A DNA stretch of 64,000 bases from an uncultured Candidatus Saccharibacteria bacterium (GTDB lineage: Bacteria; Patescibacteriota; Saccharimonadia; Saccharimonadales; Saccharimonadaceae), in assembly GCA_937898545.1 (NCBI GenBank), contig CALEJV010000003.1, positions 253,193 through 317,192 of the forward strand, given 5' to 3'. This document shows positions 59,203-61,548 of this stretch, one piece after another (position 1 is the stretch's first letter; each line of letters begins with the position of its first letter). The position numbers were made by a program, and so were the translations under genes. The notes under the pieces were generated by a model. It was given only the letters and a program-made list of their open reading frames with translations, was not told the origin of the DNA and made no database searches.

Positions 59203-61548
59203 ATGGATACGAATGGTGGGATGATGATGCGCTACCGGCAAGCGACCTATTATGCTGCGCTAGCACAGCGTGCACTCTGGCGCACACTGCCAGCTGGCCA
59301 GCCATTGCAGCCAAGCGATATAAAGCAGCTTTACTCGGATGAGCTCCGGGCAGCGCTTGCGGCGGACTTTGCGTTGAGTTTTAGCTTGACTCAGATTGCG
59401 GAGTATACTCAGTCGGATGGCACAGCGCCGCTGATTATTACCGATCGCGAGCGATGGGCGGCAGCACGCGCTCATGCGCTCGTCTATGATATAGTACAAC
59501 CTGGCTGCGACATTACTCACTCACAAGCGGGGATTGATGCACTCTGCACGTTAACACACGACCCGCAAACCTCACTATCTAGCACAATACACCTCTGTGA
59601 CGCTCGTCTTGGTGGTGCACTCGCTCAGGCAAGCGGCAGGGCACTTGGCCAGCTAGAGCAAACGATCTACTGTTTGATCGATAGCGCAGTCGCCCAAGAC
59701 GATACCCCATGGCACCTGGCGAAGCTCCTCAGTCCAGCGACTGACGGCACGATTATCCCGATTATTCAGCTACGGCCCAAGACACTGCTCGCCACGCTTT
59801 CCACCTACGAGCTGCTTGCGCTTTTTATTGGCTATGGGTATGAGCCACGAATCGTTGACTGCACCACAGCTGACCCGCGCCAGTCAGACGCAGACTACAC
59901 TGCTGCGCTCGCGTGGGCAACTGAGCGCACTGCTGCTTTGCGCCAGCCAGCCCAACTGCGCCCACACAAAGCCCGCCGACCACTGTTGCTTGTGCGTACT
60001 CCAGAACAGTTTGAGACGCTACTAGACGATGACGAAGCACAAGAGGACTCGCTCGATGATAATGGCGATGTTCAGCCGTCAAGCATTGCCCGGGCACAGG
60101 CAGCGCTTGCTCACCGCAAAGCAGATGGTGCTGACTCGAGCTGGGCACGCACGCAGGCATGGCTTACTCAGGTGCTTGCGTGGTGTGAGCCAGAGAATCT
60201 GTTTGATGCAGCAGGCAATCTCACGTTTGCCGAGACGAAGGCCCTGCCGCACACGGCTGCAGCTCATGCCGATAATGATCACGCCAACTCGCATACAGCT
60301 CAGCTCACAGCACAAACTCCTGCTCTGGTAGCCACACCACTACGCCGGCCGGCTATTGAGCCCTATGCAGTCGTTGCGACGCCACCTGGCACGCAGCGCA
60401 GCAATACACTTTCTCGCGTTGGTTCGTATCTGGCCGATCTTGCCAAGGACGCGGCACCAGATAGCTTCCGGCTGTTTATAAGTCCGTCACTGCAGAGCGG
60501 TACGCTCGCTCAGTGTTTTGCATCACAACCACGAGCCTGGCAGTGGGGCAGTCAGCCAAGCATAGCACCACATGCGTCAGACGGCTACACAATGAGCTAC
60601 CCAGCAGCAGGTGCGCTGCGCGGTATGCAGCTTGGCTATCTCGAACAGGGGAGGCAAAGCGTCTTCGTTGGAGCGTCCGTACATGAGGACATGAGCGCGG
60701 CAAGTCGCTCGTATACCGCAGCTCTGGCGAGTCAGCCAAGCAGCACATCGCTACCGAGCCTCAACACCATCCTCTCGCATCAGAGTGCTGAGCAGGTAAC
60801 CAATGCGCTTGATCAGCGAGACGCCCCCACAACGGTCTACTTCCCAGCCGATAGCAACTGCGCGGTGGTGACGCTCGATATGATGTTGTCGAGCACGCAG
60901 GTGATCAATGTGTTGCATGCCAGCGATACCACGCAGCCTACCTGGCTCACCACCAAGGCGGCTCGTGCTCAGATGCACGCGGGGCTTGCCACGTGGAACT
61001 TCGCCAGCCACACCAGCCCAGATATTGTACTCGCCGCGTGTGGTGACATTGCCACTACAGAGGTATTGGCCGCTATTGAGCTCATCACGCATTCTTGCCC
61101 GGCTGCCCGGGTACGCTGCGTCAATATCTCGAGCCTCACACCACGTGGCTTTGGCACGCTCGCTCAACCTGTCTCACGCCGAACGCTCGCGCGCACGGTG
61201 ACAACAACCAAGCCAGTGATTATCGCCTACCCGGGCGAAGAGCGCTCTCTTGCGGCAACACTATTTGCTTATGGGGTTGATGGTCGGCAGTTTGATATCC
61301 ATAGCTTCGGCCTGGCACCGTGCGGCGACACGCTCATGACAAGCCTCATTAACCAGCAGGCTAGCCGCTATGATCTTGCTATTGCCGCCGCAACATGCCT
61401 TAGCGCAACAGGCGTTATCTCTTCAGACGATGCCCAGCGTCTCATGGAGCATTGCCGCGCAGCGATTGAGCAGTGTCTCGCCCACGCACGCGAGCACCAC
61501 ACCGACCACCCCATGGTCACCACCTGGCAGTGGCAGCGAGGACAGTAG
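59203..61548 (+). CDS. Phosphoketolase (Xfp) homologue with catalytic motifs erased
   Basis: Xfp landmarks: Y.QA.YY.A.AQ..L....L....IK, IIPIIQL, L...F.GYGYEP, ENLFD..G.L, FRLF..., VYFPADSN, PDIVLAACGD and SRYDLAI.A. Confidence 0.8.
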   Translation: MDTNGGMMMRYRQATYYAALAQRALWRTLPAGQPLQPSDIKQLYSDELRAALAADFALSFSLTQIAEYTQSDGTAPLIITDRERWAAARAHALVYDIVQPGCDITHSQAGIDALCTLTHDPQTSLSSTIHLCDARLGGALAQASGRALGQLEQTIYCLIDSAVAQDDTPWHLAKLLSPATDGTIIPIIQLRPKTLLATLSTYELLALFIGYGYEPRIVDCTTADPRQSDADYTAALAWATERTAALRQPAQLRPHKARRPLLLVRTPEQFETLLDDDEAQEDSLDDNGDVQPSSIARAQAALAHRKADGADSSWARTQAWLTQVLAWCEPENLFDAAGNLTFAETKALPHTAAAHADNDHANSHTAQLTAQTPALVATPLRRPAIEPYAVVATPPGTQRSNTLSRVGSYLADLAKDAAPDSFRLFISPSLQSGTLAQCFASQPRAWQWGSQPSIAPHASDGYTMSYPAAGALRGMQLGYLEQGRQSVFVGASVHEDMSAASRSYTAALASQPSSTSLPSLNTILSHQSAEQVTNALDQRDAPTTVYFPADSNCAVVTLDMMLSSTQVINVLHASDTTQPTWLTTKAARAQMHAGLATWNFASHTSPDIVLAACGDIATTEVLAAIELITHSCPAARVRCVNISSLTPRGFGTLAQPVSRRTLARTVTTTKPVIIAYPGEERSLAATLFAYGVDGRQFDIHSFGLAPCGDTLMTSLINQQASRYDLAIAAATCLSATGVISSDDAQRLMEHCRAAIEQCLAHAREHHTDHPMVTTWQWQRGQ

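What the first reader, a model, noticed from the sequence alone, without database searches (positions are those of the whole stretch)
59203..61548. Full-length phosphoketolase with every recognisable catalytic motif erased
Seen in sequence: an uninterrupted ~780-aa ORF collinear with Xfp. The GHWG, GHG and EGGELGY His/ThDP-contact motifs are absent (ARLGGAL at the last), the ThDP/Mg motif GDGE...N reads IDSAVAQ...RPK, and NGFTHQ and SEH are not recognisable. It keeps a good leaderless promoter and is divergent from the erm-like gene. Established: Xfp needs ThDP and these residues. Inference: a pseudoenzyme kept for a new role (scaffold, metabolite binding, or dominant-negative on host or own enzymes), or very late-stage decay without stops.
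Basis: partly seen in the sequence, partly recalled or inferred. Interest (0 to 1): 0.68.

Follow-up and report, generated by a model that had tools for sequence, protein, structure and literature searches.

The report
Conserved dead phosphoketolase in oral Saccharibacteria
A tiny mouth bacterium (Nanosynbacter, Saccharibacteria) keeps its only copy of the sugar-splitting enzyme phosphoketolase as a full-length, well-folded protein that has lost its vitamin-B1 cofactor site and almost all catalytic residues, and natural selection still protects it in about 37 related species, so it now does an unknown, non-enzymatic job.

Summary
Window 59203-61548 (+) encodes a 781-aa protein that is homologous to phosphoketolase (Xfp) over its whole length. 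It lacks the ThDP/Mg motif, the cofactor-activating Glu and 11 of 13 active-site side chains.

- **Origin.** It is the positional orthologue of canonical xfp (erm-like <- -> xfp -> rlmD-like) in an oral Nanosynbacter clade. It is also the only xfp homologue in the 1.05-Mb genome.
- **Not decay.**
  - 37 species-level genomes carry an orthologue at 85-92% identity, and 35 of these are fully open.
  - ML dN/dS is 0.28, and omega=1 is rejected (2dlnL=1350). About 230 nonsense changes are expected under neutrality; one is seen.
  - The ~40 nt upstream, with a TATACT box 7 nt before the ATG, are almost invariant.
  - A sister lineage (G020) has a second dead form only ~31-36% identical, which is also open.
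- **Relaxed constraint.** The canonical xfp in sister species has omega 0.044, so constraint is about six times weaker here. It is strongest in the C-terminal domain.
- **Linked gene losses.** The same clade has deleted ackA, which follows xfp in relatives, and has lost transketolase. No ThDP-enzyme family that I tested remains.

Best reading: a selected pseudo-phosphoketolase whose role is non-catalytic and still unknown. No such protein is described in the searched literature.

The parts
59203..61548 (+). Pseudo-phosphoketolase gene (781 codons plus stop). It is the positional orthologue of xfp.
   Evidence: full-length homology to Xfp, conserved synteny and loss of the catalytic motifs.
59203..59592 (+). 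Residues 1-130: remodelled N-terminal region that held GHWG (H64) and GPGHG (H97). It now carries a new conserved motif, LAADFALSFS, shared with the G020 dead form (LAKDFAFSIV).
   Evidence: Identity to canonical Xfp is 15%. omega is 0.25. pLDDT is about 80-89.
59593..60012 (+). Residues 131-270: remnant of the PP (diphosphate-binding) domain. EGGELGY reads CDARLGG, GDGEAETG reads IDSAVAQD, and the NGYKI loop is deleted.
   Evidence: omega is 0.175.
60013..60402 (+). Residues 271-400: acidic linker that is partly disordered and variable in length. It replaces the KGWTG...AHQ (H320) segment.
   Evidence: pLDDT is below 50 at residues 273-293, 300-310 and 345-375. omega is 0.28. Indels among orthologues are seen.
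60403..60897 (+). Residues 401-565: remnant of the Pyr domain. E479 is A, Y501 is A, and 12 residues that include RQDHNGF are deleted.
   Evidence: omega is 0.175.
60898..61545 (+). Residues 566-781: C-terminal domain, the best-kept part of the protein.
   Evidence: XFP_C scores 103 bits. omega is 0.11. Identity to canonical Xfp is 38%, similar to the 41% between canonical enzymes of different phyla. pLDDT is above 90.
59163..59202 (+). Nearly invariant 5' flank with a -10-like TATACT (59190-59195) 7 nt before the ATG. This is the likely promoter of a leaderless mRNA (inferred).
   Evidence: identical in 35 of 37 species, while synonymous sites in the ORF have dS of about 0.28. The scan found no -35/-10 pair here.
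61549..61613 (.). 65-nt spacer before the rlmD-like gene. This is the place where ackA lies in relatives with a canonical xfp. ackA is deleted here without a remnant.
58371..59105 (-). Divergent Erm-like rRNA adenine methyltransferase gene (context and synteny anchor).
61614..62933 (+). RlmD/RumA-like rRNA uracil-5-methyltransferase gene (context and synteny anchor).

Best explanation
The gene is the in-situ descendant of the xfp gene of Nanosynbacter.

History. In the common ancestor of this clade and its sister lineage G020, three changes occurred together: the phosphoketolase/acetate-kinase route was given up (ackA deleted), transketolase was lost, and Xfp lost its ThDP-Mg site, the cofactor-activating glutamate and nearly all catalytic histidines.

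What remains. The protein was not discarded. It still folds as a three-domain phosphoketolase-like protein, it is driven by a conserved promoter, and it has been kept by purifying selection through the radiation of at least 37 species. It is therefore a pseudoenzyme.

Inferred mechanism. It acts without ThDP and without ketol cleavage, through binding rather than catalysis. The binding is most likely carried by the slowly evolving C-terminal domain, which in cyanobacterial Xpk forms oligomer contacts and a ligand site. The remodelled but conserved former active-site region may also take part. This would continue a second, non-catalytic role that the ancestral enzyme already had. The partner or ligand is unknown.

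Shown: homology, motif loss, orthology, selection, co-loss of ackA and tkt, and a confident predicted fold. Inferred: lack of activity, expression, and the binding or scaffold role.
For: - **Homology and fold.** Pfam and NCBIfam hits. PDB sequence matches to phosphoketolases. AlphaFold2 gives pLDDT 79.7 and pTM 0.82. The top 20 Foldseek hits are all phosphoketolases with TM about 0.75-0.77.
- **Dead site.** 11 of the 13 active-site side chains listed in PMC10547157 are changed or deleted, and the GDG...N motif is gone. The replacement residues are themselves invariant in 36 orthologues.
- **Orthology.** The erm-like / xfp / rlmD-like order is shared with species that carry canonical xfp.
- **Single copy.** No other xfp homologue is found.
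- **Selection.**
  - NG86 dN/dS is 0.18.
  - ML omega is 0.278 against omega=1, with lnL -20565.2 vs -21240.6.
  - Every domain has omega between 0.11 and 0.28.
  - About 231 nonsense substitutions are expected on the tree if neutral. One is seen, 6 codons from the end.
  - The neighbours have omega 0.06-0.12 and the canonical xfp has 0.044.
- **Deep persistence.** The G020 form (P0121, 715 aa) is dead too. It shares the indels, groups with the window clade at 100% bootstrap and is open, although RpoC shows the lineages are 9% apart.
- **Promoter region.** It is almost invariant.
- **Pathway loss.**
  - ackA is absent in 12 of 12 dead-form genomes. It lies directly after xfp in 11 others.
  - The transketolase N subunit is absent in 9 of 9 and present in 8 of 8 others.
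  - No TPP_enzyme_C or E1_dh hits occur in the clade.
- **Active relative.** A canonical Saccharibacteria phosphoketolase is an active ThDP enzyme (PDB 9CD3/9CD4, bioRxiv 10.1101/2024.08.08.607227).
Against:
- Inactivity is inferred from sequence only.
- omega is six times higher than for the canonical enzyme. The protein evolves about 20 times faster than RpoC, so constraint is modest.
- The clade keeps rpe, which makes xylulose-5-P. It also has a Pta-like gene that the canonical-xfp species I sampled lack. No other source of acetyl-P or acetyl-CoA was found. This leaves room for some acetyl-P-linked or sugar-phosphate-linked role.
- The ATP-site residues of cyanobacterial Xpk are not kept: only Y710 and H719 of H706/Y710/R711/H719/R721 remain. 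That particular ligand site is therefore not the explanation.
- The protein tree does not nest the dead clade inside the genus. This is probably long-branch attraction.
Confidence: 0.75

Rival explanations
1. Neo-functionalised enzyme. The protein has lost ThDP chemistry but catalyses a different reaction, or binds and hands on a phosphorylated metabolite such as xylulose-5-P, fructose-6-P, acetyl-P or Pi. It would do this in the rebuilt cleft, possibly feeding or working with the clade-specific Pta-like enzyme.
For: - The residues that replaced the catalytic ones are invariant in 36 species.
- A new motif, LA(A/K)DFA(L/F)S, is shared by both dead lineages at the old GHWG site.
- rpe is kept although both known consumers of xylulose-5-P are gone.
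- PTA_PTB is present only in dead-form genomes among the 17 tested, and no PFL, PDH or PFOR-type source of acetyl-CoA was found.
Against: - No known catalytic motif appears in the new residues, which are mostly Ala, Leu, Arg and Ser.
- The loops that shape the substrate channel are deleted (NGYKI, RQDHNGF).
- omega in the former catalytic domains (0.175-0.25) is higher than in the C-terminal domain.
- The co-segregation with pta reflects a single clade, so it counts as one evolutionary event.
- Homologues of this Pta at 60% identity occur in other oral Saccharibacteria.
Confidence: 0.15
2. Residual phosphoketolase. The protein still binds ThDP in an unorthodox way and makes acetyl-phosphate, which Pta turns into acetyl-CoA. 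Pta would then have replaced AckA as the downstream enzyme.
For: Pta is present exactly where AckA is missing, and an Xfp-Pta route to acetyl-CoA is well known in other bacteria (established knowledge). D of GDG may align with D160 or D159 depending on the alignment. H553 and Q321 are kept.
Against: - The activating Glu479 is Ala.
- The Mg ligand Asn215 is Arg, and the following loop is deleted.
- H64, H97, H142 and H320 are all replaced. In B. breve H64A, H142A, H320A and H553A were the mutants chosen for structural study (PDB 3AHG-3AHJ).
- The NCBIfam score is a quarter of the cut-off.
- The clade has lost its other ThDP enzyme as well.
Confidence: 0.04
3. Slowly decaying pseudogene, or an ORF kept open only for a cis effect, for example transcription or translation running into the rlmD-like gene.
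For: omega is raised six-fold relative to canonical xfp. One orthologue has a frameshift (L053) and one has a stop 6 codons early (L026). The whole associated pathway is gone.
Against: - omega=1 is rejected with 2dlnL=1350.
- About 231 nonsense changes are expected if neutral, against one observed.
- All five regions have omega of 0.28 or less. A cis effect would not constrain amino-acid identity.
- The sister lineage G020 keeps an open 715-aa frame after divergence to ~31-36% identity.
- The rlmD-like gene is preceded by its own TATACT/TATAAT-like boxes (sequence).
Confidence: 0.04
4. Xenologous replacement. An already divergent phosphoketolase-like gene from elsewhere replaced xfp at the same locus, rather than the resident gene degenerating in place.
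For: In the protein tree the dead clade sits outside the canonical Nanosynbacter group plus P0122, and the node joining that group has only 59% support.
Against: - The flanks and orientation are identical to those of canonical xfp.
- No closer relative exists among 1.84 billion representatives. After the clade's own cluster and the G020 form, the next hit is a canonical enzyme at 32% identity.
- The very long stem (1.03 substitutions per site) makes long-branch attraction likely.
- Identity of the C-terminal domain to the genus's canonical Xfp is ordinary at 38%.
Confidence: 0.05

Closest known systems
Canonical phosphoketolase Xfp/Xpk (EC 4.1.2.9 / 4.1.2.22). Examples: Candidatus Saccharibacteria Pk (PDB 9CD3/9CD4), Bifidobacterium breve/longum Xfp (3AHC, 3AI7) and the xfp of sister Nanosynbacter species.
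   Same: Same three-domain architecture and length, with all Pfam XFP domains present. The predicted fold matches at TM about 0.75-0.77. The chromosomal position is the same as xfp in sister species.
   Different: - The ThDP/Mg motif, E479, H64, H97, H142, H320, Y501, Q546, H548 and N549 are absent.
- Identity is only about 30%.
- The NCBIfam score is far below the cut-off.
- There is no downstream ackA.
- omega is 0.28 against 0.044.
ATP-sensing phosphoketolase of Synechococcus elongatus (SeXPK, PDB 8IO8; PMC10365998).
   Same: It is the best sequence and structure match in the PDB. It shows that the C-terminal domain of a phosphoketolase can carry a regulatory ligand site and oligomer contacts about 30 Å away from the active site.
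   Different: Of the ATP-motif residues only Y710 and H719 have counterparts. H706, R711 and R721 are A, G and F here (alignment). SeXPK is an active enzyme.
Human transketolase-like proteins TKTL1/TKTL2 (from memory; not tested here).
   Same: They are members of the same ThDP superfamily in which a paralogue carries deletions or substitutions in the cofactor/active site, and their catalytic competence is disputed.
   Different: They are paralogues that exist beside an active transketolase. The protein here is the only copy, belongs to the phosphoketolase branch, and sits in a bacterium that has lost transketolase too.
Other degenerate phosphoketolase homologues: P0121 (the G020 lineage) and P0124 (a metagenome contig of an unrelated high-GC organism).
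   Same: Both are full length with GHWG, GHG, EGGELGY, GDGE, SEH and NGFSHQ degenerated.
   Different: P0121 is the sister form of the same event. P0124 is independent: it groups with canonical enzymes P0129 and P0132. It is a single sequence without evidence of selection, and its neighbours are unrelated.

Membership tests
Phosphoketolase (Xfp/Xpk), as a homologous family (Pfam PF09364/PF03894/PF09363) | All three XFP domains in order, above Pfam gathering scores | tested here: met
   XFP_N 60.5 bits (cut-off 23.7), XFP 43 bits (22) and XFP_C 103.3 bits (23.4).
Phosphoketolase (Xfp/Xpk), as a homologous family | Phosphoketolase/transketolase-type three-domain fold | tested here: met
   AlphaFold2 gives pTM 0.82. 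The top 20 Foldseek hits are phosphoketolases at TM 0.73-0.78 and probability 1.00. Transketolases follow at TM about 0.5.
Phosphoketolase as an enzyme (EC 4.1.2.9/4.1.2.22; NCBIfam PRK05261 models) | Score above the curated NCBIfam cut-off | tested here: not met
   the best model gives 231.9 bits against a cut-off of 962. The equivalog model gives 104.5 against 1518.
Phosphoketolase as an enzyme | ThDP-Mg binding motif GDG-X(~30)-N (G181 D182 G183 ... N215) | tested here: not met
   the motif reads IDSAVAQD ... R, and the GYK residues after N215 are deleted. These states are invariant in 36 orthologues.
Phosphoketolase as an enzyme | Glutamate that activates ThDP N1' (E479 in LSEH) | tested here: not met
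   Ala in 33 of 36 orthologues. The residue's role is taken from PMC10547157.
Phosphoketolase as an enzyme | Catalytic histidines H64, H97, H142, H320 and H553 | tested here: not met
   these read A, R (or E), gap (or L), A and H. Only H553 is kept. Numbering was verified on 3AHC and 3AHH.
Phosphoketolase as an enzyme | Signature EGGELGY (PROSITE phosphoketolase signature 1; recalled from memory) | tested here: not met
   the signature reads CDARLGG.
Phosphoketolase as an enzyme | Formation of acetyl-phosphate from F6P or X5P plus Pi | not testable with these tools
   This needs a purified-protein assay.
Phosphoketolase pathway module in Nanosynbacter (xfp-ackA) | Acetate kinase gene directly downstream | tested here: not met
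   ackA follows canonical xfp in 11 genus genomes. It is absent, without remnant, from the window and from all 12 dead-form genomes.
Pseudoenzyme (non-catalytic homologue kept by selection) | Clear homology to an enzyme family with loss of essential catalytic or cofactor residues | tested here: met
Pseudoenzyme (non-catalytic homologue kept by selection) | Purifying selection after the loss | tested here: met
   - omega is 0.278 and omega=1 is rejected.
- Every domain has omega of 0.28 or less.
- 35 of 37 orthologues are open.
- About 231 stops are expected if neutral.
Pseudoenzyme (non-catalytic homologue kept by selection) | Expression as RNA and protein | not testable with these tools
The only indirect evidence is the invariant promoter-like region.

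The most novel reading that the evidence does not exclude
The ancestral Saccharibacteria phosphoketolase had a second, non-catalytic function, such as a large oligomeric scaffold or a metabolite- or partner-binding protein acting mainly through its C-terminal domain. When this Nanosynbacter lineage abandoned all thiamine-diphosphate-dependent metabolism (Xfp activity, AckA, transketolase), that moonlighting role became the sole reason for keeping a 781-aa protein in a 1-Mb genome. The dead Xfp would then be a natural separation-of-function allele that exposes an unknown role of phosphoketolases. It may be tied to the clade-specific Pta/acetyl-phosphate node or to the epibiotic life cycle.
Probability: 0.3. 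Interest if true: 0.75.

Novelty: new variant of a known kind. Interest (0 to 1): 0.6.

Why it matters
**Metabolic reconstruction.** Annotation pipelines call this protein "probable phosphoketolase" (JGI names). Metabolic reconstructions of a common group of human oral Saccharibacteria therefore credit them with a phosphoketolase step they almost certainly lack. The same clade also lacks acetate kinase and transketolase, so its central carbon and ATP budget differs from that of Nanosynbacter species with the canonical xfp-ackA module.

**Enzyme biology.** An obligate epibiont with about 1 Mb of DNA pays for a 2.3-kb gene that cannot do its ancestral chemistry. This points to an unrecognised non-catalytic role of the phosphoketolase fold. 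Selected pseudoenzymes of the ThDP superfamily are barely documented in bacteria, and no paper in the searched library links phosphoketolase with pseudoenzymes.

**Testability.** Genetic tools now exist for Saccharibacteria (PMC10633639, PMC12815258), so the question can be tested directly.

Tried and rejected
- **ATP sensor like SeXPK.** The motif residues are not conserved, so this was rejected.
- **Regulator of an active paralogue, or dominant-negative on the bacterium's own enzyme.** No second xfp exists in 11 clade genomes, so this was rejected.
- **Promoter scan.** The consensus scan found no -35/-10 pair upstream. Only the conserved -10-like box supports the leaderless-promoter claim.
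- **Thiamine pyrophosphokinase as a marker of cofactor abandonment.** TPK_catalytic is absent from all 17 genomes, canonical ones included, so it is uninformative.
- **E1_dh hits.** They are cross-hits on the transketolase N subunit, at the same coordinates.
- **Acetyl-CoA source for the clade's Pta.** No PFL was found, so this stays unresolved.
- **Protein tree.** I tried to place the dead clade inside the genus. It falls outside on a very long branch. This is probably an artefact, so orthology rests on synteny.
- **Literature.**
  - Searches for Saccharibacteria, TM7x or Patescibacteria with phosphoketolase, and for phosphoketolase with pseudoenzyme, found nothing on this protein.
  - The TM7x ATP-metabolism paper does not mention phosphoketolase, acetate kinase or acetyl-phosphate.
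- **Crp-type box.** An earlier scan note reports one before ackA-xfp in other Saccharibacteria. The nearest look-alike here (TGTG-N9-CACA at about 59132-59148) has the wrong spacing and is not conserved.
- **First ML run.** The first omega=1 fit used an arbitrary kappa. It was redone with the fitted kappa.
- **Canonical-xfp codon set.** The first set included a wrong ORF from L067. It was redone without it.
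Full report
**1. What is there**

The region holds one long ORF, 59131..61548 on the + strand. The conserved start is the ATG at 59203, which gives 781 aa. It aligns with the MNxHEKHS start of canonical relatives. In several orthologues a stop codon lies between the upstream ATG and this one.

- Pfam finds XFP_N, XFP and XFP_C in order, each above its gathering score but weakly.
- The best NCBIfam phosphoketolase model gives 232 bits where 962 are required.
- The PDB sequence search finds only phosphoketolases. 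The best is the cyanobacterial SeXPK 8IO8, at E=1.7e-41.

Contig titles of close relatives identify the organism as an oral Candidatus Saccharibacteria bacterium of the genus Nanosynbacter. Its genome is 1.05 Mb in 8 contigs and 95% complete. This gene is its only XFP homologue.

**2. The motif losses are real**

I aligned the protein with 11 canonical enzymes: seven from the same genus and four more distant ones. I checked the Bifidobacterium numbering on PDB 3AHC and its H142A mutant 3AHH. The active-site list comes from PMC10547157.

| Canonical feature | State in this protein |
|---|---|
| H64 (GHWG) | A |
| H97 (GPGHG) | R or E, depending on the aligner |
| H142 | gap or L |
| G155 | A (EGGELGY reads CDARLGG) |
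| H320 | A |
| S440 | I |
| E479, the glutamate that activates ThDP | A |
| Y501 | A |
| Q546, H548, N549 | lost in a 12-residue deletion |
| Q321, H553 | kept |
| GDGEAETG (diphosphate/Mg motif) | IDSAVAQD |
| N215 (Mg ligand) | R, and the next residues are deleted |

The replacement residues are themselves invariant or nearly so in 36 orthologues.

**3. It is the orthologue of xfp, and the event is old**

- **Where the two forms occur.** Ten other species of the genus carry an orthologue at 88-92% identity. About 24 species carry a canonical Xfp with all motifs, at 30-36% identity to ours. One species, G020, carries a second dead form of 715 aa, P0121.
- **Synteny.** The gene order is the same for all three kinds: erm-like (divergent), xfp, then an rlmD-like gene.
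- **Single origin.** The G020 form shares the diagnostic indels (loss of NGYKI and of RQDHNGF) and a new motif at the old GHWG site: LAKDFAFS, against LAADFALS here. It groups with the window clade at 100% bootstrap.
- **Sister lineage.** RpoC is 99-100% identical within the clade, 91% to G020 and 81-85% to canonical-xfp species. G020 is therefore the sister lineage, and the loss most likely happened once, before the split.
- **Tree placement.** In the protein tree the dead forms sit on a stem of about 1 substitution per site, outside the genus's canonical group. I read this as long-branch attraction. A replacement by a foreign gene cannot be fully excluded. However, no closer relative exists among 1.84 billion representative proteins.

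**4. It is not decaying**

A scan of GTDB species representatives found 37 genomes with an orthologue at 85-92% identity.

- **Open frames.** 35 are open end to end. One has a 1-bp frameshift near residue 705. One has a TAG six codons before the end.
- **Pairwise dN/dS.** Nei-Gojobori dN/dS is 0.18, from dN 0.051 and dS 0.28.
- **ML omega.** Under GY94+F3x4, omega is 0.278. Fixing omega=1 costs 675 log-likelihood units.
- **Comparators.** The neighbours give 0.095 (rlmD-like), 0.122 (erm-like) and 0.057 (PMT_2 glycosyltransferase). The canonical xfp of ten sister species gives 0.044.
- **All regions constrained.**

| Region | omega |
|---|---|
| N-terminal region | 0.25 |
| PP remnant | 0.175 |
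| Linker | 0.28 |
| Pyr remnant | 0.175 |
| C-terminal domain | 0.11 |

- **Expected stops.** With the fitted tree length and kappa, a neutral sequence would have taken about 231 nonsense substitutions on this tree.
- **Upstream region.** The ~40 nt upstream of the ATG include a TATACT box 7 nt from it. They are identical in 35 of 37 species, although synonymous sites differ by about 0.28. This fits a conserved promoter for a leaderless mRNA. The consensus scan did not call it because no -35 is recognisable. The region is also shared with the divergent erm-like gene.

**5. Shape**

AlphaFold2 on a 30-sequence alignment gives mean pLDDT 79.7 and pTM 0.82.

- The C-terminal domain is above 90.
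- The N-terminal half is mostly 75-90.
- Three segments are disordered (273-293, 300-310, 345-375). They lie in an acidic linker of variable length that replaces the KGWTG...AHQ loop.

The top 20 Foldseek hits in the PDB are all phosphoketolases (TM about 0.75-0.77), and transketolases follow at about 0.5. By domain, the C-terminal part is as similar to canonical Xfp (38%) as canonical enzymes of different phyla are to each other (41%). The N-terminal, PP and Pyr parts have fallen to 15%, 37% and 28%, against 47%, 61% and 48%.

**6. The metabolic setting changed with it**

| Gene family | Dead-form genomes | Other genus genomes tested |
|---|---|---|
| ackA | absent in 12 of 12, no remnant | directly after canonical xfp in 11 |
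| Transketolase N subunit | absent in 9 of 9 | present in 8 of 8, next to rpe |
| rpe | present | present; 17 of 17 overall |
| TPP_enzyme_C, E1_dh | no hits | only weak hits or cross-hits on tktN |
| PTA_PTB (Pta-like) | present in 9 of 9 | absent in 8 of 8 |

- In the window only 65 nt separate the gene from the rlmD-like gene.
- Of the ThDP-enzyme families I tested, none is left in the clade. This agrees with a protein that no longer uses ThDP.
- In G000 the Pta-like gene lies next to a GNAT acetyltransferase gene. It scores just under the NCBIfam pta cut-offs. It has 60%-identical relatives in other oral Saccharibacteria.
- No PFL was found.
- I cannot explain what feeds this Pta, or what consumes xylulose-5-P.
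- All these changes map to one clade and so to one stretch of history. They are not independent associations.
- Two species (G022, G035) keep a canonical xfp but lack ackA, and G036 lacks xfp.

**7. Mechanism**

- **Shown.** The protein is a full-length phosphoketolase homologue. It cannot have the family's cofactor site or catalytic residues. It is the only copy, and it is kept by selection with its promoter region.
- **Inferred.** It is inactive as a phosphoketolase and acts by binding. The C-terminal domain is the best-conserved part. In SeXPK that domain forms the dimer-dimer contacts of the dodecamer and an allosteric ATP site about 30 Å from the active site (PMC10365998), so it is the most likely functional module.
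- **ATP site excluded.** The ATP-site residues themselves are not kept (alignment), so ATP sensing of that kind is not the answer.
- **Dominant-negative role excluded.** A dominant-negative or regulatory role toward an active paralogue is excluded because none exists.
- **Alternatives that remain possible.** A new catalytic or metabolite-handling role in the rebuilt cleft is possible. Supporting it are the invariant replacement residues, the new shared motif, and the kept rpe and Pta. I rate this at about 0.15. I rate residual ThDP chemistry at about 0.04.

**8. Comparison with what is known**

The canonical Saccharibacteria enzyme is an active ThDP enzyme with solved structures (9CD3/9CD4). 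I found no paper that describes a dead phosphoketolase, and JGI annotation calls these proteins "probable phosphoketolase".

A further, independent degenerate homologue (P0124) exists on a metagenome contig of an unrelated organism. It groups with canonical enzymes in the tree.

Earlier notes of this scan, which are unchecked leads, report the following:
- the same kind of gene in another genome (e1-2003456);
- a canonical ackA-xfp operon in other Saccharibacteria (e1-2743513);
- several other dead enzymes in Saccharibacteria, and a degenerate transketolase in another small-genome bacterium (e1-5165185, e1-3352008, e1-3321854).

The thing is therefore a new variant of a known kind: a selected pseudoenzyme, here of the phosphoketolase family.

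**9. Verdict**

The pseudoenzyme reading is supported and the decay reading is rejected. The function remains unknown. Confidence in "selected, non-catalytic phosphoketolase homologue" is 0.75. Interest is 0.6.

The main limits are:
- no biochemistry;
- genomes that are mostly MAGs;
- a ThDP-enzyme census that covers only the families searched.

Noticed in passing
G000:C7:87594-88493 (locus L077:8571-9524, minus strand), outside the window: A Pta-like gene (PTA_PTB, 288 bits) lies divergent from a GNAT acetyltransferase gene. It is present in all 9 dead-Xfp genomes tested and absent from all 8 other genus genomes tested. The clade has no ackA, PFL, PDH-E1 or TPP_enzyme_C hit, so its acetyl-P/acetyl-CoA source is unknown. 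Homologues at 60% identity occur in oral taxon 488 Saccharibacteria.
   Followed up: partly
Whole genomes G000, G001, G009, G012, G020, G024, G028, G030, G033: The transketolase N subunit is missing from the whole dead-Xfp clade, while rpe, its neighbour in relatives, is kept. Xylulose-5-phosphate therefore has no recognised consumer in these genomes.
   Followed up: partly
G022 and G035 (L064), G036: Two species keep a canonical, motif-complete xfp but have no ackA, and no remnant lies between xfp and rlmD. This may be an intermediate state. G036 has no xfp, and its rpoC region is full of in-frame stops, which suggests a poor assembly.
   Followed up: no
P0124 / L078:8231-10597 (Logan ERR7015089 contig): An independent, partly degenerate phosphoketolase homologue sits in an unrelated high-GC organism. 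Its motifs read GRWG, GPGYA, RGTESGL and SDSE, its NGFSHQ loop is deleted, and SEH reads SDL. It lies among sulfatase, URO-D and PHP genes. It is a single sequence, so selection could not be tested.
   Followed up: partly
window 58371-59105 (-): The divergent neighbour scores 184 bits on the NCBIfam broad Erm 23S rRNA methyltransferase model (cut-off 212), well above its KsgA score (114). It is conserved next to xfp across the genus, with omega 0.12.
   Followed up: partly
window 59203-59322 (first 40 codons): Synonymous divergence in the first 40 codons (dS 0.10) is less than half that of the rest of the gene (about 0.2-0.4). Together with the invariant upstream 40 nt, this suggests constraint on the 5' end of the mRNA or on shared control elements of the divergent gene pair.
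   Followed up: no
window 54000-64000: GC content is patchy. It is about 0.56-0.59 across the erm-like, xfp-like and rlmD-like genes, and 0.46-0.49 in the flanking membrane-protein genes (55000-57000 and 63000-64000).
   Followed up: no
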